Positions 1-40,933 of a stretch of DNA of 40,933 nt are shown in pieces. A model generated the notes under the pieces. It did not search any database and was not told where the DNA came from. It saw only the letters and a list, made by a program, of their open reading frames with translations. Each line of letters begins with the position of its first letter. Position 1 is the first letter of the stretch. A program made the position numbers and the translations under genes. The DNA is taken from the IMG/VR virus record IMGVR_UViG_3300011339_000715, positions 1 through 40,933 of that record. The stretch is one strand, 5' to 3'. This DNA is from a virus. Taxonomy: Duplodnaviria > Caudoviricetes.

Positions 1-332
1 AAATCATAGAACCCAGCCCTCCATGCAAACGACATTTCATCAGCTTTTCCAATTCGTTCAGCAGCATCACTTCCCTGCCATTTAAGAATAGTTAGTGCAA
101 CCACAGGCAAAAGAGTCGCAGAGTTTGTTGTAAAGAAGTGATTTAGTGGCATAGCTATAAGTGTGTTCCAGATACACTTATTTAGTTCTTGGCGAGACAC
201 TTGATCGTTGTCTGCGACATCATCAAATACTTGAGTCACCTGAAAGAACATTAGCAGCCATTCGACGGCAGAAGCAGGCAACTGAAAGTGTTCTTCCAGA
301 TTTTGCTTCAGTGATGTCAGACGCTCATCCAT
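1..332 (-). CDS. DDxxD-motif protein, partial copy (3' end cut by window edge) of 38670..39128
   Basis: ATG at 332 overlaps the TAA of the upstream gene; matches the N-terminal part of the 152 aa ORF. Confidence 0.85.
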   Translation of the reverse strand, partial: MDERLTSLKQNLEEHFQLPASAVEWLLMFFQVTQVFDDVADNDQVSRQELNKCIWNTLIAMPLNHFFTTNSATLLPVVALTILKWQGSDAAERIGKADEMSFAWRAGFYD

Positions 333-667
333 TAGGTAATCTCCCTCCCGGAGGCAGTAATGGTCAAAGACGTAGCAGCGCCGGCTAGAGTCGAGATGAA
401 CCCGCCTGGCTCAAGCACTTGGCCCACCAGTTCAGGACACTGGTAAGTCTCTGCCGGCACAATGGTCCGGGTCTTTAGGATGAGGTTAGAGTTACTAGCA
501 GATCCTCCAACAGGAATCAGGTTCGTGCTAAAGGTCACGTTGGTCGTGTTCGTGTTTGTCACCGTGAACTTGTCGATGATCGTCTTGCAGGCCACAGCGG
601 TGTACTGCGCAGTCTGAACCGCTTCAGCCTGTTTGGGAGGAATGATGTTTTTGACTGTAACGGCCAT
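332..667 (-). CDS. Small beta-rich virion/tail-associated protein (111 aa)
   Basis: Tightly coupled ORF in the tail module; only 2 aa differ from the second copy despite many nucleotide changes. Confidence 0.8.
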   Translation of the reverse strand: MAVTVKNIIPPKQAEAVQTAQYTAVACKTIIDKFTVTNTNTTNVTFSTNLIPVGGSASNSNLILKTRTIVPAETYQCPELVGQVLEPGGFISTLAGAATSLTITASGREIT

Positions 668-669
668 GG

Positions 670-1455
670 CTAGGAAATGTTATCGGTAACAGTGAGAATT
701 AATGAGGGAATGCTGGGAGCTGGCGGGACTGCTGCCGAAGCGTGGATTTCGCAATCAATATCATCAGTGGACCACATGAGTTCAAAATAATCTTCCAGTC
801 CAAGCTGGACCACATAGTTCCAAGCAGCAACAGATTCTCCATTGTTGCCCTGAATGCGAATCTTACCCGCCGAATCTGGCAAGTCAACTCCGTTGATCCT
901 TAGCCAAATATAAACAAGCCCAACTCCACCGCTTGTTTTTAACAACTGAGCAGAAAACTGAATGTTATAAACTCCCTCGGTGTCCACATACACGCGAGAT
1001 GTTGGCGTGCCAACTCGAACTCCAAAAGACAAGTCAGTGACATCAACAGTTATGCCGTACGCCGTGTTAATCACAGCAGCATTCTGTGTCACATTCGATT
1101 GGAACGCTCCGTACCGCTTGCGCTTGTTCTGCTCGAACACCGGGGGCAAGATTTGCTCTTGCACGGCCTGTGTCACTACTGGAGGAGCAATATCAAAGTC
1201 CTGACTTTCTGACGGCCTCACAGGAGCCAGCGCAAGCAGCTCAACTGCATCAGCCAACCTAGTGATAGCCGAGACTGCCTGCTGCGCCCTAGAATCCGCA
1301 TTCTGTGCGTTTATCGAGACCTCTTGGATCAGGGACGCATTCGAGTCTAGGCTAGACGGGATCAGGTCAAATAATTGCTCAAAAGCTCGAATCGCACGCT
1401 GCGAAGGCAGGAACTCAGCCAGTTCATTTCGAGTGATCTTGAAAGGGCCGGTCAT
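670..1455 (-). CDS. Putative tail needle-like protein (P22 gp26 position): N-terminal coiled coil plus C-terminal beta-sandwich knob
   Basis: Directly downstream of the gp10-like gene with ATGA overlap; helical N-half; G[VI]YNIQFSAQL beta-domain. Confidence 0.6.
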   Translation of the reverse strand: MTGPFKITRNELAEFLPSQRAIRAFEQLFDLIPSSLDSNASLIQEVSINAQNADSRAQQAVSAITRLADAVELLALAPVRPSESQDFDIAPPVVTQAVQEQILPPVFEQNKRKRYGAFQSNVTQNAAVINTAYGITVDVTDLSFGVRVGTPTSRVYVDTEGVYNIQFSAQLLKTSGGVGLVYIWLRINGVDLPDSAGKIRIQGNNGESVAAWNYVVQLGLEDYFELMWSTDDIDCEIHASAAVPPAPSIPSLILTVTDNIS

Positions 1456-2855
1456 ACAAAGAGCGGTTCAACTCTGGCCTCAAGTCTAGCAACAGAAAGC
1501 TGGGCGTCGCTTGTCCCACGGAACTTCTGCGCTCTCCACTGCCTCATGCGCCCCTGCTGTAGCCATGACAACCGCTTCCCACGCACGCCAGTCAGGCCAG
1601 CCTTGCACACACGCTCTTGGCTCCAGGTCAAGCCGTCCTCGGTGTACGAGGTCCAGATACTGGGATCCGCACCAAAGATTGAGTTGCCGGTCAAGGCAAT
1701 CAGTTCCATTTCGTGGAAGATCACTCCTCGGCTTTGGTTGTAAGTAATGATTGTCGCAAACTCCCAACCATTCAAGGCGCCCCAGTGCGAAGAGAGTGCG
1801 TCATCAAGGTAACCAAAAGCTGTGCTAGTAGGATCACCCACGTTCCAGCGGTTGTACGCCCATACCAGATTGCGAGCGCGATACTGGCCGTCTCCCACGA
1901 TGCTGGTAGCAAGAGTAAACCATACTGGACTTTGAGCTGCAGTGGTGGCAGCGGCATCAAAGACCAGCGTCTGATTTGGCAAGTGGATGTACAAGTGACG
2001 ATACCCCTTGTCTACGCGAGACTCGACAAGCACGTTGGTAAGCTCCTCTTCAGTAAACTCAGTAAGCAGCAGGTCAATCTCCCGGGTGGCAATGCGTTGC
2101 GCGTTACTGCCAGTGATTAGCCAGACTGAAGGAGCCTCATTACGGCCACCGCCAATGAACGCGATGCTTTCCATGAACACGCAGCAGGTGCGAGTGCCAA
2201 TGGTGCCACGCTGCACCTGAGCGCCTTCCACTCGCTGAAACGGGAACAGCGAGCCTCCTACGTTGTCAAAGACTTCGATAGTGTGCCGATTGAGCGCATA
2301 GACTTCGTTGCGCACCTTTAGGAGGGCCACTACGGGGTCTGGATCAGCTTCAGACGACCCATACTTGAGCGGGTTGACAGAGAATGGGTCGTTAAGCTCA
2401 GTGACGACAAGGAACTCTCCGTCGGTCGTCATAAAGTAGCCATCAACCCAGACGAAATCTACGACCGTGCCTAGGTCAACATCAGTAATCTGTTGCAGCC
2501 CAGTGCTTGGACGATACAAGAACAGCCGGCCTCCTGATGCCACGCCGAGGTAGTCGAATGAGTAGTCGAACGTCACATTGCCAGTGCCACCAACATCCCC
2601 TATGACAGTCACTACGTTTGTACTAGAGATTGACACTAGTTTAGTGCCCATCACTCGGTACACGATTCCTTGCCACTCGATGCCTCCACGGTCAATGCCG
2701 GGGCCTGTGCCAAGGCCAATGATCCCGTCTGCCGGTCGAAAGTAACCGTCAGAGATGCCTGACTGAAGCATGACAGGCACCATGTTCCGTGGATATTCCA
2801 CACGGAAATCCCCAGCGGTGCTTGTGTAAATGCCGTTGAGGATGGGGACTTGCAT
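1452..2855 (-). CDS. Tail hub / DNA stabilization protein (P22 gp10-like)
   Basis: 467 aa; motifs VWVDGYF, SSEADPDPVV, IEVFDNVG, EDGLTWSQER typical of the family; synteny. Confidence 0.88.
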   Translation of the reverse strand: MQVPILNGIYTSTAGDFRVEYPRNMVPVMLQSGISDGYFRPADGIIGLGTGPGIDRGGIEWQGIVYRVMGTKLVSISSTNVVTVIGDVGGTGNVTFDYSFDYLGVASGGRLFLYRPSTGLQQITDVDLGTVVDFVWVDGYFMTTDGEFLVVTELNDPFSVNPLKYGSSEADPDPVVALLKVRNEVYALNRHTIEVFDNVGGSLFPFQRVEGAQVQRGTIGTRTCCVFMESIAFIGGGRNEAPSVWLITGSNAQRIATREIDLLLTEFTEEELTNVLVESRVDKGYRHLYIHLPNQTLVFDAAATTAAQSPVWFTLATSIVGDGQYRARNLVWAYNRWNVGDPTSTAFGYLDDALSSHWGALNGWEFATIITYNQSRGVIFHEMELIALTGNSIFGADPSIWTSYTEDGLTWSQERVCKAGLTGVRGKRLSWLQQGRMRQWRAQKFRGTSDAQLSVARLEARVEPLFV

Positions 2856-11013: not shown

Positions 11014-13029
11014 CTATTGCATTGGCTGGGCGGGCTGAGTCAAGCGGTCAGCGAGCGCAAAGATGCGTTCTTGATCGGTTGAACTCACCTTGGAAAGCGT
11101 CTCTGTCGTCTTTGCCCTAGCCTCTTCAGCCTTAGCGACTGCGAGAATACTGTCTGCCTGCGCTTTAGAGGCCCGTGCAATGGCTTCTTCACTGGCTGCC
11201 TGCAAGTACTGCGCCTGCGGGTCAGGCTGGGCATTCTGAGCCGCTGCTGCCATTTCTTCTGCCTCTGCCTCGGTGGGCTTAAGCACGCCCATCATCAGGA
11301 GTTTCTTACGGAAGTAATCACGAACGTCGCTAATCCCTTCGCCTTCCATGTTGAGCATTGCCATAGCAGAGAGCACCTGGGTCATCTCAGGGTCTTGAGT
11401 CATCGTCATCATGTCAGTGATCGCCCGGACTGTAGCTTGCCGCTTGGTGGCACTACTGGGTCCAACAGTGACAACAACGTCGTACTCAGCCTCTGATAGA
11501 TCGTTTTCGTATTCGATCTCGCCTTCTTCGTTGACCACTGGCTTAAGCAGCTCGACTGGCTCCATCTTGCCCGATTCGTGGATGCTCTTCATCTTACGGC
11601 CTTCCTCGACAAAGATGTCCCTAGCGATAGATAGCCAGACTTCGCCACACCGTTTCACAGCCTTTGCCATGTTGGACATGTAGATAAAGGTCTGCATGTC
11701 GAGGCGCTGCTGGATGAGTTCCACGGTCTTGCCACTCAAGTGACTCACCATCTTGTCTCCCTGCCCCGGGGAGCCCAGGATCTCCTGCATATCCACTTCA
11801 GTAAGCTGAAGCAGGGCAGCCATAGAGGGCGGCAGAGCGGGAGGCTTCGTGTAGGCCACAGGACCGCCAATGATGGGGTTCCCGTTGGCGTCTGTCATCG
11901 TGTTAATCAGCAGGTAAGGGTAGTTCTTAAGGTTGTCCTCGGCCCACATGAGCTGGTGGCCGGCCACCTGTTCAGGGACCAGGATAGGCTTCTCCATGGC
12001 AGAGAGCGCACTGATCTCGCCCAGCTTACTTAGCTGCATGTTCTTGAGGCGTTGAGCGTCCTTGGCAAGCCTGACATGGCCCATGCAACGCTCTACGTTG
12101 TCTACGAACCAGCGTTTCCCGTACACCGGGATGATCGGGATGTGTTTGCCGGCGATGTAGCCACAGTCTTCAAGGATCTTGGCCCCAGACATGATGTACT
12201 TGTGGACCTTGCGCGTCTTAATCTTCTTGCGCCGCACTTCCTTCCAGCCAGTCGCAAGCATCTCTTCTTCTTTGTCGAGTTCCTCGGGCCTAAGCGACTC
12301 TTCTTTACCATTAAAATCCTGATAGATCCTAATCTGTTCAGAGACTTCCTCGACCTTGTAATACTCAGCGACGTACACAACTGAAGGCGTGTACCAGTCA
12401 AACTGAGAGCGGGTAACCGTCTTGGGCCAGGTGGACGGGTCATCGTCGTACTCGGCCTTGTAGGCGTCACGAGTCATGCTGGTGAGCACGAAACAACGCT
12501 TGGCATCAGCCTTGTCCTGTCGCTTAGCACCCAAGTCAAAGTAAACGCTAGTGTCAGCGTCAAAGATGGGCTCGATACACACCCGCTGCTTGTCTTCCTC
12601 GGGGTCTTCTTCGTTTTCGTACTCTGTCCTGAGTCTCCAGGCGCCAAACCCACCCATCACAGCCTCTTCAAATGCGTTGTCGTACGCCTCTTCAGCCCCT
12701 GAGTCTTGTTCATTGGCCCTGTACAGCCCGGCACAAGTGTCAGCCAGCTTGTCGTACTCTTCCCCGTCTTTGGAAGAGAAGTTTACTGTGATGCGATTGT
12801 TACGATACTCGTTAATGATCCTCAGGACTGCCATGTGGATCTTGTTGACCTCGAACCTAGGCTTGTTCTCGAACTGATCGCCAAGGGGGCCTTCCCATTG
12901 GGCGCCGGCCAGCGAGCAAAACCGCCGGTCCCCAAGGCAGTTCATGCGCTCCTGATACATGGCGCTCTGGATCTGGTCGAACTCTGCACGCGCAGCTTGG
13001 TGGATTTGGGAAAGTTTGTCTTCGGTCAT
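11014..13029 (-). CDS. Portal protein (P22 gp1-like)
   Basis: 671 aa; GAQWEG, PRFEVNKI, GGFGAWR, HIPIIPVYGKR, GHVRLAKDAQRLKN; C-terminal helical barrel. Confidence 0.93.
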   Translation of the reverse strand: MTEDKLSQIHQAARAEFDQIQSAMYQERMNCLGDRRFCSLAGAQWEGPLGDQFENKPRFEVNKIHMAVLRIINEYRNNRITVNFSSKDGEEYDKLADTCAGLYRANEQDSGAEEAYDNAFEEAVMGGFGAWRLRTEYENEEDPEEDKQRVCIEPIFDADTSVYFDLGAKRQDKADAKRCFVLTSMTRDAYKAEYDDDPSTWPKTVTRSQFDWYTPSVVYVAEYYKVEEVSEQIRIYQDFNGKEESLRPEELDKEEEMLATGWKEVRRKKIKTRKVHKYIMSGAKILEDCGYIAGKHIPIIPVYGKRWFVDNVERCMGHVRLAKDAQRLKNMQLSKLGEISALSAMEKPILVPEQVAGHQLMWAEDNLKNYPYLLINTMTDANGNPIIGGPVAYTKPPALPPSMAALLQLTEVDMQEILGSPGQGDKMVSHLSGKTVELIQQRLDMQTFIYMSNMAKAVKRCGEVWLSIARDIFVEEGRKMKSIHESGKMEPVELLKPVVNEEGEIEYENDLSEAEYDVVVTVGPSSATKRQATVRAITDMMTMTQDPEMTQVLSAMAMLNMEGEGISDVRDYFRKKLLMMGVLKPTEAEAEEMAAAAQNAQPDPQAQYLQAASEEAIARASKAQADSILAVAKAEEARAKTTETLSKVSSTDQERIFALADRLTQPAQPMQ

Positions 13030-14474
13030 CTCTTGAAAAAGTTAATCACTGGCATCACAAATGAACTATTCTTCTTTGTACCATACTTAGACGGAATAGC
13101 AGCTCTACTCAAGCCACTAACTACTAAATACCGTGTCGCGTCCATCAAATGGTCGTTATCTTTTACCACGCGTCCTTTTTCGTCCCTACGATAAAGACGA
13201 AACTCATTTAACCAATTACGAAGATTTGCAAATACACGGATCTTCCCGGCAGACATTGCCTGCCAAACGGTGTACAGCCCGCTCTCCACGGCGTTGTTCG
13301 CAAGCGTTATGTCGAGGCCGTGCCTGCGGTACATGCCAAGAAGCTGTTGCCCGTCAGTCTGCGCTCGACCGCGACTGGCTGGATCAATTACCCCCGGCAT
13401 CTCGCCACGGGCTTTAATCGCCTCTGCGTGTAGGATCGGTTCTGCCTGGCCTCGATAGTACTCTGAGTAGAGATACGTCACCTCTGTATCCGGGTTGGTG
13501 GCGCCCCAGATAACCGCTGTCCTGTTCCAGCCTACGTCCATGCCGTAGCAGCGCCTCCAGTGCGCCGGAATGGCAAACTCTTCACTGATCAGTTCACTCT
13601 CTGGCACTGGGTAAATAGCACCTGCACCAAGCTGTGGCACACCTTTAGAACGCGCGTCCCTCTGGAAGGGCGGGATCGACGCCCAAAGCTCTTCCTTCTG
13701 CTGTTTAGTCAAGTGGGGCACATCGTCCCACGTCGCCATCCCCACATACTTGCTCCCTGACGCCTGCTCCTGCACCTCGCCATTGGGCATAAACGACAAC
13801 ACAGTCTCACTCATCCCCATCAGAGGGGTGAACGTGAGCATCGTCATGCCGTTGTTGGTCATCGTTCTAAGCAAACACTCTGTGTAGACATCAAGCGGAG
13901 GCTCTTCATCAAGCCAGATAACATCTTGTTCTGAGCCTTGAAACGCTTCCCGGCGCTGGTCATACGACTTGAATGTCAGGCGAGATTCACCTCCAGAGAC
14001 GTGACGTACAGTGATGACCTCGATAGCCTCTGCGACGCCGGCCTTGGCAGTAGTCTTGATGAGATCTGACTTAGGGATGAGCCCCGTACCAAACTCCCCG
14101 GGCGGCCCTAGGAGCTTCATCTGAAGAATGTCGCGAGTCGTCTTGCCGGTGTCTCCCGCTGCCCAGGCACTCACAGCTTGTTCAAACCGTCTGCCCTGCC
14201 ACCATGAGGGATAACGGCCAGTCATATGCAGCACCATCTCGTACCCGCCAATACTCTCAGTCTTGCCAATACGGTTAGCAGCCATCATCAGGCGCTCACG
14301 GTACTTGGCTCCTGCGTTAAAGTAAGCGATGTGCTTTGGATACAGCTCCCTACGGAACTCTCCAGTATCAGGGAAGTAAGTAGCGATCTTGCGCTCCCTT
14401 TTACGTCTCAAAGACTCTTCGAGTAAAAGAGTCAGTTCCAAGTTCTTGTCGAGCCCGTCGAGAATGTCGCTCAT
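13026..14474 (-). CDS. terL: Terminase large subunit (likely start MSDILD at 14474)
   Basis: Walker A AANRIGKT, FKSYDQRREAFQG, Walker B IWLDEEPP, LTFTP, nuclease GMDVGW and DHLMDATRY. Confidence 0.95.
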   Translation of the reverse strand: MSDILDGLDKNLELTLLLEESLRRKRERKIATYFPDTGEFRRELYPKHIAYFNAGAKYRERLMMAANRIGKTESIGGYEMVLHMTGRYPSWWQGRRFEQAVSAWAAGDTGKTTRDILQMKLLGPPGEFGTGLIPKSDLIKTTAKAGVAEAIEVITVRHVSGGESRLTFKSYDQRREAFQGSEQDVIWLDEEPPLDVYTECLLRTMTNNGMTMLTFTPLMGMSETVLSFMPNGEVQEQASGSKYVGMATWDDVPHLTKQQKEELWASIPPFQRDARSKGVPQLGAGAIYPVPESELISEEFAIPAHWRRCYGMDVGWNRTAVIWGATNPDTEVTYLYSEYYRGQAEPILHAEAIKARGEMPGVIDPASRGRAQTDGQQLLGMYRRHGLDITLANNAVESGLYTVWQAMSAGKIRVFANLRNWLNEFRLYRRDEKGRVVKDNDHLMDATRYLVVSGLSRAAIPSKYGTKKNSSFVMPVINFFKR

Positions 14475-14561
14475 ACAAGATCGGGTTCCCCGGACACCTG
14501 CACACGCAGGGCCGGGTATTTTCCGTTTCGTCCAGTCACACCCCCGGGCTGACTGATACAA

Positions 14562-15413: not shown

Positions 15414-15625
15414 AGCACAAACAGCGATAGCAGAAGAGAAGGTTTGTGCAACTGGAAAAAGAAAAAGCTGGAGAGCGCCCGTCCCCGGGAGGGGACTGGC
15501 TTGGGGTGAGTAGGGGGAGTGCTAAGGGGGTTGTACTGGTTGAGGATAGGGAGAAGGGCGGCTGTGTAGGGACCTCGAACTTTCTCTTAAAAGGAACGGT
15601 CGATGGGGGTGACGACCCCCTCTGA

Positions 15626-15672
15626 CCACTACAGGTAGTGGTTCAGCCTAGTGACACCACTATATGTAGTGG
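15626..15672. promoter_or_regulatory. Tandem palindromic operators resembling NrdR boxes
   Basis: CCACTACAGGTAGTGG (15626..15641) and CCACTATATGTAGTGG (15657..15672), 31 bp start to start. Confidence 0.7.
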
Positions 15673-15803
15673 TCTATCTATCGGTGCACCGTATCGGTGC
15701 CCCTATCGGCCAGCCTATACTCTCCCGTATCAGTAGGATATGCACTTGCGTAAGTCCCTGATAATCAACATAACCCACTCCATCTTACCTATATTGTCGG
15801 GTG

Positions 15804-16238
15804 TTATAGGCTCTTAGCCTGTGTGACTGGCTCCACGAGCTCAGGCGCCGCTTGTGCTTGGTCCGTCACCACCACAGCCTGCACATCAATAGCTGCCGCT
15901 GGCGAGGCCATTAGACCGGCTCGCTGGGCATCTGCGAGAGCACGGGCCGTACGGGCTTCGAGCTGGGCATCTGTTAGCTCGGTGAGCGCGGCGAGTAACG
16001 GGGAGCCGTCCGCGTTGGAGAGTTTAGTGGGCAGGAGTTTGGAGAGGAGCGCACAAAACGTACGCGGGTCCGTGCGGCCAACATGCTCTAGATAGGATGC
16101 GCCGCCCAAGCGTTCAAACGCGTTGTGGATAGCATCTTTGATGCTGGCCGTTAGTTGGTTTGGTGTTCCTTTGGCGCGGCCAATGGTGCGCTCTCCGGCG
16201 CGGAGTAAATGCGGCTCAAGATGTGCTGGTGCTGGCAT
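15804..16238 (-). CDS. terS: Putative terminase small subunit
   Basis: GRAKGTPN..IKDAI..AFERLGG..YL..DPRTFCALLSKLLP pattern, LTDAQLEA C-terminal motif; upstream of terL. Confidence 0.7.
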   Translation of the reverse strand: MPAPAHLEPHLLRAGERTIGRAKGTPNQLTASIKDAIHNAFERLGGASYLEHVGRTDPRTFCALLSKLLPTKLSNADGSPLLAALTELTDAQLEARTARALADAQRAGLMASPAAAIDVQAVVVTDQAQAAPELVEPVTQAKSL

Positions 16239-18325: not shown

Positions 18326-18395
18326 CAAAATCCCAAAATCCAAAATCGCAAAATCCAAATTTGAAAAGTCAATTTAATCGGTGAAAAGGGGGCCC
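18326..18395 (+). repeat. CAAAATC heptamer array plus CAATTTAATCGGTGAAAA element; related element at 19046..19106
   Basis: CAAAATC at 18326, 18334, 18341, 18349. Confidence 0.7.
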
Positions 18396-18887: not shown

Positions 18888-19121
18888 GCCTGTGAGCTGG
18901 CCATCCTAATGTCCTGGCGCCGCTGGCTCGTGCCTGGATCATATTGGTGCCTTCACCGATATGGTTCACCGATCTACCTAGGCACCCACAATCTTGCGCC
19001 CCTACGAAGATTCTCCTAAACCTGCCGTTTCCCTTTTCCGATTTAGGAAAACGGAAATTGGAAAAACCAATTCTCAAATTCCAATTTAATCCGTAAAAAT
19101 GGACCCATCCCTAAACCATCT

Positions 19122-38685: not shown

Positions 38686-39128
38686 ACAAACTCCTTTCGA
38701 TAAGTCTCAAAATCTTCTCCGTACAATTTCATTACATCAAAGGAAAAATCAGTAGCAATTTCGACTCCATGACAAATTTGAACTGCAATCATGCACAAAT
38801 CATAGAACCCAGCCCTCCATGCAAACGACATTTCATCAGCTTTTCCAATTCGTTCAGCAGCATCACTTCCCTGCCATTTAAGAATAGTTAGTGCAACCAC
38901 AGGCAAAAGAGTCGCAGAGTTTGCTGTAAAGAAGTGATTTAGTGGCATAGCTATAAGTGTGTTCCAGATACACTTATTTAGTTCTTGGCGAGACACTTGA
39001 TCGCCGTCTGCGACATCATCAAATACTTGAGTCACCTGAAAAAACATTAGCAGCCATTCGACGGCAGGAGCAGGCAACTGGAAGTGTTCTTCCAGATGCT
39101 GCTTCAGTGATGTCAAGCGCTCATCCAT
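38670..39128 (-). CDS. Helical protein with QVFDDVADGD (DDxxD) motif at the P22 gp14 position
   Basis: Coupled ORF; motif visible; function unknown. Confidence 0.75.
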   Translation of the reverse strand: MDERLTSLKQHLEEHFQLPAPAVEWLLMFFQVTQVFDDVADGDQVSRQELNKCIWNTLIAMPLNHFFTANSATLLPVVALTILKWQGSDAAERIGKADEMSFAWRAGFYDLCMIAVQICHGVEIATDFSFDVMKLYGEDFETYRKEFVCQIH

Positions 39129-39463
39129 TAGGTAATCTCCCTCCCGGAGGCAGTAATGGTCAAAGACGTAGCAGCGCCGGCCAGTGTCGAGATGAACCCG
39201 CCGGCTTCGAGCACTTGGCCTACCAGTTCAGGACACTGGTAAGTCTCTGCCGGCACAATGGTCCGGGTCTTCAAAATCAGGTTAGAGTTACTAGCAGATC
39301 CCCCAACAGGAATGAGGTTCGTGCTAAACGTCACGTTGGTCGTGTTCGTGTTAGTTACCGTGAACTTGTCGATAATCGTCTTGCAGGCCACAGCGGTGTA
39401 CTGCGCAGTCTGAGCAGCTTCAGCCTGCTTTGGAGGAATAATGTTTTTGACTGTAACGGCCAT
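39128..39463 (-). CDS. Small virion protein, variant copy of 332..667
   Basis: 109 of 111 aa identical by inspection. Confidence 0.8.
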   Translation of the reverse strand: MAVTVKNIIPPKQAEAAQTAQYTAVACKTIIDKFTVTNTNTTNVTFSTNLIPVGGSASNSNLILKTRTIVPAETYQCPELVGQVLEAGGFISTLAGAATSLTITASGREIT

Positions 39464-39465
39464 GG

Positions 39466-40251
39466 CTAGGAAATGTTATCGGTAACAGTGAGAATCAGCG
39501 AGGGAATACTGGGAGCTGGTGGGGTCGCTGCCGAAGCGTGAATCTGGCAATCAATATCATCTGTGGACCACATGATCTCAAAGTAATCTTCCAACCCAAG
39601 TTGGACCACATAGTTCCAAGCAGCAATGGATTCTCCGTTGTTGCCTTGAATGCGAATCTTACCCGCAGACGCTGGCAAGTCAACTCCGTTGATCCTTAGC
39701 CAAATATAAACAAGCCCAACTCCACCGCTTGTTTTTAACAACTGAGCAGAAAACTGAATGTTGTAAACTCCCTCGGTGTCCACATACACGCGAGATGTTG
39801 GAGTGCCAACTCTGACTCCAAAAGACAGGTCAGTGACATCAAGAGTCATTCCATACGCCGTGTTGATGACTGCGGCAGTCTGCGTAATGTTTGATTGGAA
39901 CGCTCCATACCGCTTGCGCTTGTTCTGCTCGAACACGGGAGGCAAAATCTGCTCTTGCACGGCCTGTGTCACTACTGGAGGAGCAATATCGACGTTCTGA
40001 ACTTGTAACGGCCTCACAGGAGCCAGCGCAAGCAGCTCAACTGCATCAGCCAACCTAGTGATAGCCGAGACTGCCTGCTGTGCCCTAGAATCCGCATTCT
40101 GTGCGTTTATCGAGACTTCTTCAACCAGAGACGCATTCGAGTCTAGGCTAGACGGGATCAGGTCAAATAATTGCTCAAAAGCTCGAATCGCACGCTGCGA
40201 AGGCAAGAACTCAGCCAGTTCATTTCGAGTGATCTTGAAAGGGCCGGTCAT
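39466..40251 (-). CDS. Putative tail needle-like protein, variant copy of 670..1455
   Basis: Same length, scattered substitutions. Confidence 0.6.
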   Translation of the reverse strand: MTGPFKITRNELAEFLPSQRAIRAFEQLFDLIPSSLDSNASLVEEVSINAQNADSRAQQAVSAITRLADAVELLALAPVRPLQVQNVDIAPPVVTQAVQEQILPPVFEQNKRKRYGAFQSNITQTAAVINTAYGMTLDVTDLSFGVRVGTPTSRVYVDTEGVYNIQFSAQLLKTSGGVGLVYIWLRINGVDLPASAGKIRIQGNNGESIAAWNYVVQLGLEDYFEIMWSTDDIDCQIHASAATPPAPSIPSLILTVTDNIS

Positions 40252-40933
40252 ACAAAGAGCGGTTCAACTCTGGCCTCAAGTCTAGCAACAGAAAGCTGGG
40301 CGTCGCTTGTACCCCGAAACTTCTGCGCTCTCCACTGCCTCATGCGTCCCTGCTGAAGCCAAGACAACCGCTTGCCACGCACGCCGGTCAAGCCAGCCTT
40401 GCACACACGTTCTTGACTCCAGGTCAAGCCGTCCTCGGTGTACGAGGTCCAGATACTGGGATCCGCACCAAAGATCGAGTTGCCGGTCAAGGCAATCAGT
40501 TCCATTTCGTGGAAGATCACTCCTCGGCTTTCGTTGTAAGTAATGATTGTCGCAAACTCCCAGCCATTCAAGGCGCCCCAGTGCGAAGAGAGTGCGTCAT
40601 CAAGGTAACCAAAAGCCGTGCTAGTAGGATCACCCACGTTCCAGCGGTTGTACGCCCATACCAGATTGCGAGCACGATACTGGCCGTCTCCAACAATGCT
40701 AGTAGCAAGAGTAAACCATACTGGACCTTGAGTGGCACTGGTTGCAGCGGCATCAAATACCAGCGTCTGATTTGGCAAGTGGATGTACAGGTGACGATAC
40801 CCCTTGTCTACGCGAGACTCGACAAGCACGTCGGTAAGTTCCTCTTCAGTAAGCTCAGTCAACAGCAGGTCAATTTCCCGAGTGGCAATGCGTTGCGCGT
40901 TACTGCCAGTGATTAGCCAGACTGAAGGAGCCT
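40248..40933 (-). CDS. gp10-like tail hub protein, partial variant copy (5' end cut by window edge)
   Basis: Matches the C-terminal part of 1452..2855. Confidence 0.85.
   Translation of the reverse strand, partial: APSVWLITGSNAQRIATREIDLLLTELTEEELTDVLVESRVDKGYRHLYIHLPNQTLVFDAAATSATQGPVWFTLATSIVGDGQYRARNLVWAYNRWNVGDPTSTAFGYLDDALSSHWGALNGWEFATIITYNESRGVIFHEMELIALTGNSIFGADPSIWTSYTEDGLTWSQERVCKAGLTGVRGKRLSWLQQGRMRQWRAQKFRGTSDAQLSVARLEARVEPLFV

What the first reader, a model, noticed from the sequence alone, without database searches (positions are those of the whole stretch)
15625..15673. Tandem NrdR-box-like operators in a phage with no ribonucleotide reductase: decoy or dNTP-sensing switch
Seen: two palindromes, ACCACTACAGGTAGTGGT and ACCACTATATGTAGTGGT, exactly 31 bp apart in non-coding DNA between terS and the terL/morphogenesis operon. 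No nrd gene is present in the genome. Known: NrdR, the ATP/dATP-sensing repressor of bacterial RNR genes, binds tandem 16 bp boxes (consensus acaCwAtATaTwGtg) about three helical turns apart. Box 2 matches all upper-case positions and box 1 misses one. Inference: (a) replicating phage DNA titrates host NrdR and derepresses host nrd genes, gaining dNTPs without encoding RNR; or (b) host NrdR ties phage packaging or late expression to nucleotide status. Either would be a protein-free host-manipulation system.
Basis: partly seen in the sequence, partly recalled or inferred. Interest (0 to 1): 0.85.

Follow-up and report, generated by a model that had tools for sequence, protein, structure and literature searches.

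The report
NrdR operators at phage genome end
This freshwater phage carries a matched pair of likely binding sites for NrdR, the bacterial sensor of DNA building blocks, in what is probably the end of its packaged chromosome, where cultured T7-like phages carry the same pair, so these phages likely borrow a host repressor to cap or bend their DNA ends rather than to gain nucleotides.

Summary
In detail: two NrdR-type boxes 31 bp apart, the only such pair in a 38.8-kb podovirus that has no RNR gene. Among 63 distinct relatives, 27 keep a pair spaced 31-32 bp, always on one side of an invariant core downstream of terS. The others fill that slot with YtrA-like operators, purine-pyrimidine tracts or other sequence, independent of TerS phylogeny. 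The decoy idea weakens: 8 of 8 near-complete phages of other clades carry the pair and their own RNR, and two boxless complete relatives lack RNR too. The boxes lie 174 bp from the nearest promoter-like site. New evidence points to the genome end. Contig depth over 15442-15932 is 1.6x its flanks in two runs (possibly one sample), fitting a ~300-bp terminal repeat. Cultured T7-like phages hold a 32-bp NrdR pair 13-14 bp inside their terminal-repeat end. Best reading (0.5): host NrdR likely acts as a swappable cap or bend at the packaging end. Binding, host and termini are untested. The scan noted NrdR boxes in other phages before, and DnaA or MetJ arrays at other phage ends. My paper searches found no NrdR boxes in terminal repeats.

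The parts
15625..15642 (.). NrdR-type box nearest the conserved core
   Evidence: Shares a 12-bp central stretch with E. coli nrdAB box 2, which NrdR binds.
15656..15673 (.). Second NrdR-type box, 31 bp from the first; full consensus match
   Evidence: 14 of 18 positions identical to E. coli nrdAB box 1.
15568..15612 (-). Invariant core of the clade (TCACCCC, about 23 nt, then AAGTCGAGGTCCCT-type motif); likely terminase recognition or cut region (inferred)
   Evidence: Present in nearly all terS relatives and invariant in the alignment. The near box starts 28 nt before it in the window and 25-30 nt before it in 19 of 27 pair-bearing relatives.
15442..15932 (.). Segment with about 1.6x contig depth; likely holds a short direct terminal repeat of about 200-320 bp that overlaps the boxes (inferred; ends not mapped)
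   Evidence: X2 205 vs 123/131; X4 41.4 vs 26.7/23.8. X3 slight excess, X6 none.
15751..15763 (-). IHF-consensus site (WATCAR-N4-TTR; consensus recalled) in the variable slot next to terS
   Evidence: Sequence. Related stretches occur in some relatives.
15804..16238 (-). Probable small terminase gene
   Evidence: Homologues lie directly before terL in cultured Sulfitobacter phages; phrog_11043.
15424..15451 (-). Sigma70-like promoter candidate (TTGCAC-N16-TATCGC) just before the 124-aa ORF; 174 bp from the nearest box
   Evidence: Sequence. A similar motif lies within 300 nt downstream of the core in 30 of 63 relatives. The generic promoter scan did not flag it.
13026..14561 (-). Large terminase gene, first large gene of the morphogenesis block
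   Evidence: PHROG phrog_2; Pfam Terminase_6N and 6C.

Best explanation
The two palindromes are a likely NrdR operator that probably sits in a short terminal repeat at the phage's packaging end, where bound host NrdR would act as a protein cap or sharp bend beside the terminase site rather than as a transcription switch or decoy. Shown: the box pair, its 31-32 bp spacing, its one-sided position next to an invariant core, its replacement by other modules in relatives, and the same pair 13-14 bp inside the terminal-repeat end of cultured T7-like phages. Established elsewhere: dATP/ATP-loaded NrdR tetramers kink each box by about 90 degrees and turn the DNA 180 degrees (PMC9110341). Inferred: NrdR binds here; the region is the genome end; the bound tetramer shields the end from host end-loading nucleases or shapes the junction for terminase cutting or repeat duplication. 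Any tight host binder may do the job, so dNTP sensing may be a side effect.
For: (1) Spacing: 59 of 72 distinct perfect pairs in viral contigs are spaced 31-32 bp, with 28-34 allowed. In the clade, 29 of 30 pair spacings are 31-32; spacers vary while box columns are fixed. (2) The only exact genome contigs match to the phage-derived pair pattern lies directly before a class II RNR gene, in a genome with an nrdR-like gene. (3) One-sided position: 27 of 63 relatives have a pair upstream of the core, 0 of 60 downstream. (4) The slot is swappable: YtrA-like 12, RY tract 11, other 8, single box 3, too short 2. Box presence does not follow the TerS tree (10 changes vs 10.6 shuffled), and TerS proteins 94% identical carry different modules. 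(5) terL lies within 3 kb of perfect pairs in 32 of 63 loci vs 7 of 69 promoter-control loci (p 3e-7); 12 of 42 vs 7 of 69 after rough lineage collapse (p 0.02). (6) In 10 BLAST-selected T7-like phages the pair (32 bp; one degenerate) ends 13-14 bp from the conserved terminal-repeat junction, and appears at both genome ends in 4 of 5 whole records searched. fPS ends were mapped by ligation-PCR (PMC5923468). (7) Depth is 1.6x over the box segment in X2 and X4, with diverged relatives assembled separately. (8) In other clades, DnaA-type boxes (12 of 22) and Fur-like sites (4 of 22) lie on the same side as the pair and 0 of 22 on the other side.
Against: No binding data, no host and no mapped ends for this phage. 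Depth comes from contigs, which cannot show an end. X2 and X4 may be one sample, X6 shows no excess and X3 only 1.2x. Contig ends did not pile up at one position. The terminase resembles P22-type headful terminases among others, so a pac site is not excluded. A 300-bp repeat would overlap the 3' end of terS. About half of the relatives, and T7, T3, K1F, gh-1, SP6, phiKMV, LUZ24 and phiEco32, have no NrdR pair, so it is dispensable. In some other phages the pair overlaps an ordinary promoter (L013, L014, L044, L059). The T7-like set was chosen by BLAST and is not a prevalence estimate.
Confidence: 0.5

Rival explanations
1. Decoy: replicating phage DNA titrates host NrdR (and, in relatives, other repressors), derepressing host nrd genes; the end region is simply where spare non-coding DNA is.
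For: The window and the five T7-like phages tested lack RNR. Phage boxes are closer to consensus than the E. coli nrdAB boxes. Other host-regulator-like sites share the slot.
Against: 8 of 8 near-complete phages of other clades carry the pair and an RNR; in the two checked, the pair is 13-24 kb from RNR. 2 of 2 complete boxless relatives lack RNR. One locus per genome. A decoy does not need a fixed one-sided position or a 13-14 bp offset from an end.
Confidence: 0.15
2. Nucleotide checkpoint on maturation: NrdR binds only when dATP is high, so it licenses or blocks terminase at the genome end according to dNTP status.
For: Position at the inferred or mapped end. NrdR binds DNA only when loaded with dATP plus ATP or ADP (PMC9110341).
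Against: Close relatives with near-identical TerS use non-NrdR modules in the same slot, which argues for a generic role.
Confidence: 0.15
3. Transcriptional use: NrdR represses or road-blocks transcription running from terS into the terL operon, released when phage copies outnumber NrdR.
For: The pair lies between terS and the late operon on one strand. Pairs overlap TTGACA promoters ahead of packaging or head genes in other phages (L014, L044, L059).
Against: The nearest promoter-like site is 174 bp away, whereas NrdR boxes usually overlap the polymerase site (PMC9110341). If this is the genome end, terS and terL are joined only in concatemers.
Confidence: 0.12
4. Not NrdR: the boxes are RNA hairpins (RNase III-like) or sites for a phage protein such as TerS.
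For: Each window box is a near-perfect palindrome, and the two can pair with each other. In phage AP10 an internal match sits in an intergenic hairpin-like stretch.
Against: In 39 of 58 boxes from relatives the position 4/11 pair is not Watson-Crick while the W consensus is kept. No Rfam match. The same boxes occur with unrelated terminases and before an RNR gene. Module does not follow TerS.
Confidence: 0.08

Closest known systems
NrdR operators of RNR promoters (E. coli nrdAB, nrdHIEF, nrdDG; S. coelicolor nrdRJ; PMC12176259, PMC9110341)
   Same: Two 16-bp boxes separated by 15-16 bp, with the conserved G:C pairs 9 apart; a 12-bp stretch identical to E. coli nrdAB box 2.
   Different: No nrd gene and no overlapping promoter; sits beside a conserved core at an inferred genome end; swappable for other sequence modules.
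IHF site in lambda cosB (host factors in packaging; review PMC9611059)
   Same: A host DNA-bending protein site next to the terminase substrate.
   Different: Here the ligand would be a nucleotide-gated repressor, and the site is optional and exchangeable among close relatives.
DnaA-box array in the T5 left terminal repeat (Davison, bioRxiv 10.1101/866236, abstract read)
   Same: Host-protein sites inside a phage terminal repeat, function proposed but untested; DnaA-type boxes also flank NrdR pairs in a second clade here.
   Different: Different protein; short repeat rather than a long one; proposed role there is injection stop.
Short direct terminal repeats of T7-like phages (e.g. fPS phages, PMC5923468)
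   Same: These carry the same NrdR-type pair 13-14 bp inside the repeat's right end.
   Different: The window phage has P22-like head genes and no RNA polymerase gene was found; its ends are inferred from depth only. 'NrdR' occurs 0 times in the fPS paper's main text.

Membership tests
NrdR operator | Two palindromic 16-bp boxes matching the NrdR consensus | tested here: met
   0 and 1 mismatch to CACWANATNTWGTG; direct comparison with E. coli nrdAB boxes. No RegPrecise matrix was available.
NrdR operator | Spacing of about three helical turns (31-32 bp), conserved while the spacer varies | tested here: met
   29 of 30 pair spacings in the clade; 59 of 72 in viral contigs; 26 different spacers among 29 pairs.
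NrdR operator | Conserved G:C pairs 9 bp apart, contacted by D15/R17 | tested here: met
   C3 and G12 are present in both window boxes and in 58 of 58 boxes from relatives (boxes were selected at up to 2 mismatches). Feature from PMC9110341.
NrdR operator | Lies upstream of an RNR operon and overlaps its promoter | tested here: not met
   No RNR gene; nearest promoter-like site 174 bp away. So it is not a member of the canonical nrd regulon.
NrdR operator | Host encodes NrdR | tested here: inconclusive
   Host not identified (look-up 34 unavailable). Few Shine-Dalgarno sites (6 of 44 genes) and no Bacteroidota-type promoter motif. Bacteroides was not among the controls with NrdR. E. coli has it.
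NrdR operator | dATP/ATP-dependent binding by NrdR | not testable with these tools
   Needs EMSA, MST or ChIP.
Short direct terminal repeat | Local doubling of virion read depth over a few hundred bp | tested here: inconclusive
   1.6x over a ~490-bp contig in X2 and X4 (implied repeat 314 and 321 bp), 1.2x in X3, none in X6; contigs only.
Short direct terminal repeat | Fixed read starts at both ends | not testable with these tools
   No raw-read run held this phage.
Headful pac site | One fixed start with a kilobase-scale depth step downstream | tested here: inconclusive
   Depth is similar on both sides in X2 and X4, with a step only in X3; no sharp contig-end pile-up.
Repressor decoy replacing phage RNR | Anticorrelation with phage-encoded RNR | tested here: not met
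   8 of 8 near-complete box-bearing phages of other clades encode RNR; 0 of 5 complete clade relatives do, with (3) or without (2) boxes.
YtrA-type operator (alternative module in relatives) | AGTGTA-13bp-TACACT inverted repeat | tested here: met
   Exact in 4 and one mismatch in 6 of the 12 loci so classed; motif from PMC8060467. Ligand untested.

The most novel reading that the evidence does not exclude
Unrelated phage lineages, including hundreds of cultured T7-like phage records, build host-repressor operators into their genome ends, and the NrdR version makes end protection or terminase cutting depend on the cell's dATP level: a protein-free, host-borrowed nucleotide checkpoint on genome maturation.
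Probability: 0.22. Interest if true: 0.9.

Novelty: new variant of a known kind. Interest (0 to 1): 0.7.

Why it matters
T7-like terminal repeats have been studied for decades, yet many appear to carry a fixed-position operator for a host repressor that my searches did not find described. If host repressors serve as interchangeable end caps or benders, this adds a host-factor layer to genome-end protection and packaging beyond IHF. It could make nrdR status affect the yield of common lytic phages. It is directly testable with purified E. coli NrdR and cultured phages in laboratory strains.

Tried and rejected
Contig-end pile-up as a pac marker: 39 viral and 61 metagenome core matches gave no single end position; three viral contigs start 19-66 nt upstream of the core. 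A first core pattern was mis-specified and found only 4 loci. The genome contigs pattern was too strict to name a host (1 hit, an archaeal MAG). Host inference failed: closest cultured capsid relatives are 57-58% identical (Ralstonia, Pseudomonas phages), and both atlas searches returned mostly viral clusters. The cluster-member look-up could not be made. No close cultured relative of the second clade's terminase. Records of four cultured terL relatives showed no terminal-repeat annotation in the stretches fetched. Rfam: nothing. I first dismissed the T7-like hits as chance; reversed that. Internal pair-like matches in three T7-like phages may be RNase III-type hairpins (recalled resemblance) and were not counted as support. 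The terL detection used phmmer queries drawn mostly from the test set, which favours the test set; a library scan of the control ORFs was not run.

Full report
Observation. The window is a ~38.8-kb circularly assembled phage with a 2,137-bp end overlap, P22-like head, adaptor and ejection genes, and riverine or freshwater holders. They are the only boxes within one mismatch of the NrdR consensus (0.2 expected per shuffled genome) and the only pair. No RNR or NrdR gene was found. The upstream gene is a probable terS by synteny of its homologues.

Is it an NrdR operator? The papers define two 16-bp boxes 15-16 bp apart (PMC12176259; passages and the MST section read). A dATP/ATP-loaded tetramer binds them, kinks each box by about 90 degrees and turns the DNA 180 degrees, with key G:C pairs 9 bp apart (PMC9110341; passages and section 9 read). 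A scan of viral contigs allowing 28-34 bp gave 91 loci; 59 of 72 distinct pairs are spaced 31-32. Window box 1 shares 12 central bases with E. coli nrdAB box 2. The one exact match to a phage-derived pair pattern among the bacterial and archaeal genomes sits directly before a class II RNR, in a genome with an nrdR-like gene just under the family cut-off. In relatives, 39 of 58 boxes break the hairpin at position 4/11 but keep the W consensus, which fits protein recognition rather than RNA structure; Rfam found nothing. I put NrdR as the ligand at about 0.85. Binding and host are untested.

Anatomy in the clade. Downstream of terS, 37 related loci share a core, TCACCCC followed about 23 nt later by an AAGTCGAGGTCCCT-type motif. 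I pooled these with 39 viral and 61 metagenome core matches. That gave 78 distinct contexts; 63 remained after re-deduplication and dropping matches that lack TCACC. The window itself is not counted, because its core has an extra T. Upstream of the core, 27 of 63 have an NrdR pair, 3 a single box, 12 a YtrA-like repeat (AGTGTA-13bp-TACACT, PMC8060467 passage; PMC4494728 passages), 11 a purine-pyrimidine tract, 8 other and 2 too short. Downstream, 0 of 60 have a pair. The module does not follow the TerS tree of 31 proteins, and TerS proteins 94% identical carry different modules, so TerS is unlikely to be the ligand. The nearest promoter-like site is 174 bp from the boxes.

Test of the decoy idea. 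Of 25 records searched for RNR, 13 were at least 90% complete. The 5 complete clade relatives lack RNR whether they have boxes (3) or not (2). All 8 from other clades carry both a perfect pair and an RNR. In the two of those checked genome-wide, the only pair is 13-24 kb from the RNR gene. The predicted anticorrelation is absent. Five T7-like phages with the pair do lack RNR, so titration as a side effect remains possible.

Link to genome ends. Of 63 clustered viral loci with a perfect pair, 32 have terL within 3 kb and 1 lies before an nrd gene (134 selected ORFs scanned). In 69 promoter-control loci the figure is 7: p 3e-7, or 0.02 after a rough collapse of lineages. The terL queries came mostly from the test set. 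In 20 of 22 loci from other clades, a G-tract follows the pair on the terminase side; DnaA-type boxes (12 of 22) and Fur-like sites (4 of 22; motifs recalled) lie only on the pair's side. BLAST of pairs against cultured phages hit the direct terminal repeats of T7-like phages, and 406 records match at least 80% of that repeat stretch (not checked one by one). In 10 BLAST-selected phages the pair is 32 bp apart (one degenerate) and ends 13-14 bp before the conserved repeat junction. T7, T3, K1F, gh-1 and SP6 lack it, as do phiKMV, LUZ24 and phiEco32. T3 has a GTAC-N10-GTAC palindrome in the same slot (TrpR resemblance recalled). Ends of fPS-7 and fPS-26 were mapped by ligation-PCR (PMC5923468; passages and section 24 read), and both are among the hits. 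The annotated CR8 repeat (1-189) stops short of the junction motif at 322.

The window's own end. Only contigs were available. The piece 15442-15932 has depth 205 against 123 and 131 in X2, and 41.4 against 26.7 and 23.8 in X4, with diverged relatives assembled separately. That implies a doubled stretch of about 315 bp which must overlap the boxes. X3 shows 1.2x, X6 none, X1 is uninformative, and X7 and X8 are too shallow. X2 and X4 may be one sample, and contigs cannot show ends. I put 'the boxes lie at the packaging end (terminal repeat or pac)' at about 0.75. The near box starts 27-28 nt before the junction in T7-like phages, and 28 nt before TCACC in the window (25-30 in 19 of 27 relatives). 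This hints that the cut is near 15613, but it may be coincidence.

Mechanism. Most likely (0.5) host NrdR binds the pair at the genome end and acts as a cap or bend. A tetramer 13-14 bp from an end would overlap the region an end-loading nuclease such as RecBCD needs (footprint recalled), or would shape the junction for terminase or repeat duplication, as IHF does at lambda cos (PMC9611059 passages). The free exchange with other operator-like modules suggests that occupancy or bending matters more than dNTP sensing. Rivals: dATP checkpoint on maturation 0.15, decoy 0.15, transcriptional use 0.12, not NrdR 0.08.

What is known. Host-protein sites at phage ends are known: IHF at cos, and DnaA boxes in the T5 terminal repeat (bioRxiv 10.1101/866236, abstract only). 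Searches for NrdR+phage (98 papers, 30 listed), NrdR+terminase+packaging (3 papers), terminal repeat+phage T7+NrdR (0 papers) and two searches on host sites at terminal repeats showed nothing on NrdR boxes at phage ends in their listings. The library lacks most subscription papers, and no supplements were read. Earlier notes of this scan report NrdR pairs at other phage promoters, and DnaA or MetJ arrays at phage ends; none listed had NrdR pairs in terminal repeats.

Verdict. Real; probably an NrdR operator; not a substitute for RNR; most likely part of a swappable host-protein docking slot at the phage genome end. New variant of a known kind, interest 0.7.

Noticed in passing
L377-L379, L383-L386, L397-L399 (terminal repeats of cultured T7-like phages): A 32-bp NrdR-type pair ends 13-14 bp inside the right end of the terminal repeat in members of several Studiervirinae genera; 406 records match that stretch.
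   Followed up: partly
L382:198-215 (phage T3 terminal repeat): A GTAC-N10-GTAC palindrome, resembling a TrpR operator (recalled), fills the slot where other T7-like phages have NrdR boxes.
   Followed up: no
L400:505-550 (AP10, between genes 4.5 and 4.7); also W04:8889 and W06:14218: A second, internal NrdR-like pair in three T7-like phages; in AP10 it lies ahead of gene 4.7 and the DNA polymerase gene and may overlap an RNase III-type hairpin.
   Followed up: partly
L006, L031, L034, L052, L062, L067 and relatives: A freshwater clade encoding its own RNR has NrdR pairs plus DnaA-type and Fur-like sites on one side of a conserved G-tract upstream of terS-terL; possibly its terminal repeat.
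   Followed up: partly
L113, L126, L128, L176, L192, L193, L200, L216, L222, L232: Overlapping YtrA-type inverted repeats replace the NrdR pair at a fixed position (-91 from the core motif).
   Followed up: partly
L092, L097, L098, L100, L112, L122, L233: Alternating purine-pyrimidine tracts of 34-60 bp (possible Z-DNA or flexible DNA) replace the NrdR pair.
   Followed up: no
L013, L014, L044, L059: NrdR-type pairs overlap TTGACA promoters; in L014, L044 and L059 these lie ahead of packaging or portal genes.
   Followed up: no
L035:13-57: An NrdR pair lies 12 bp from the contig start, just before a cos-like stretch and lambda-type terS-terL.
   Followed up: no
L001:3001-3045: The only perfect viral pair found directly before an nrd gene (phage nrdD).
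   Followed up: no
window 1-2137 and 38797-40933: The end overlap has 128 mismatches (2009 of 2137 identical), so the contig probably joins two strains.
   Followed up: no
window, genome-wide: Only 6 of 44 genes have a Shine-Dalgarno-like motif, and several promoter-like sites lie within about 10 nt of an ATG; the host probably uses non-SD translation.
   Followed up: partly
window 18336-18390 and 19048-19102: Two 55-nt AT-rich direct repeats (73% identical) in the early region.
   Followed up: no
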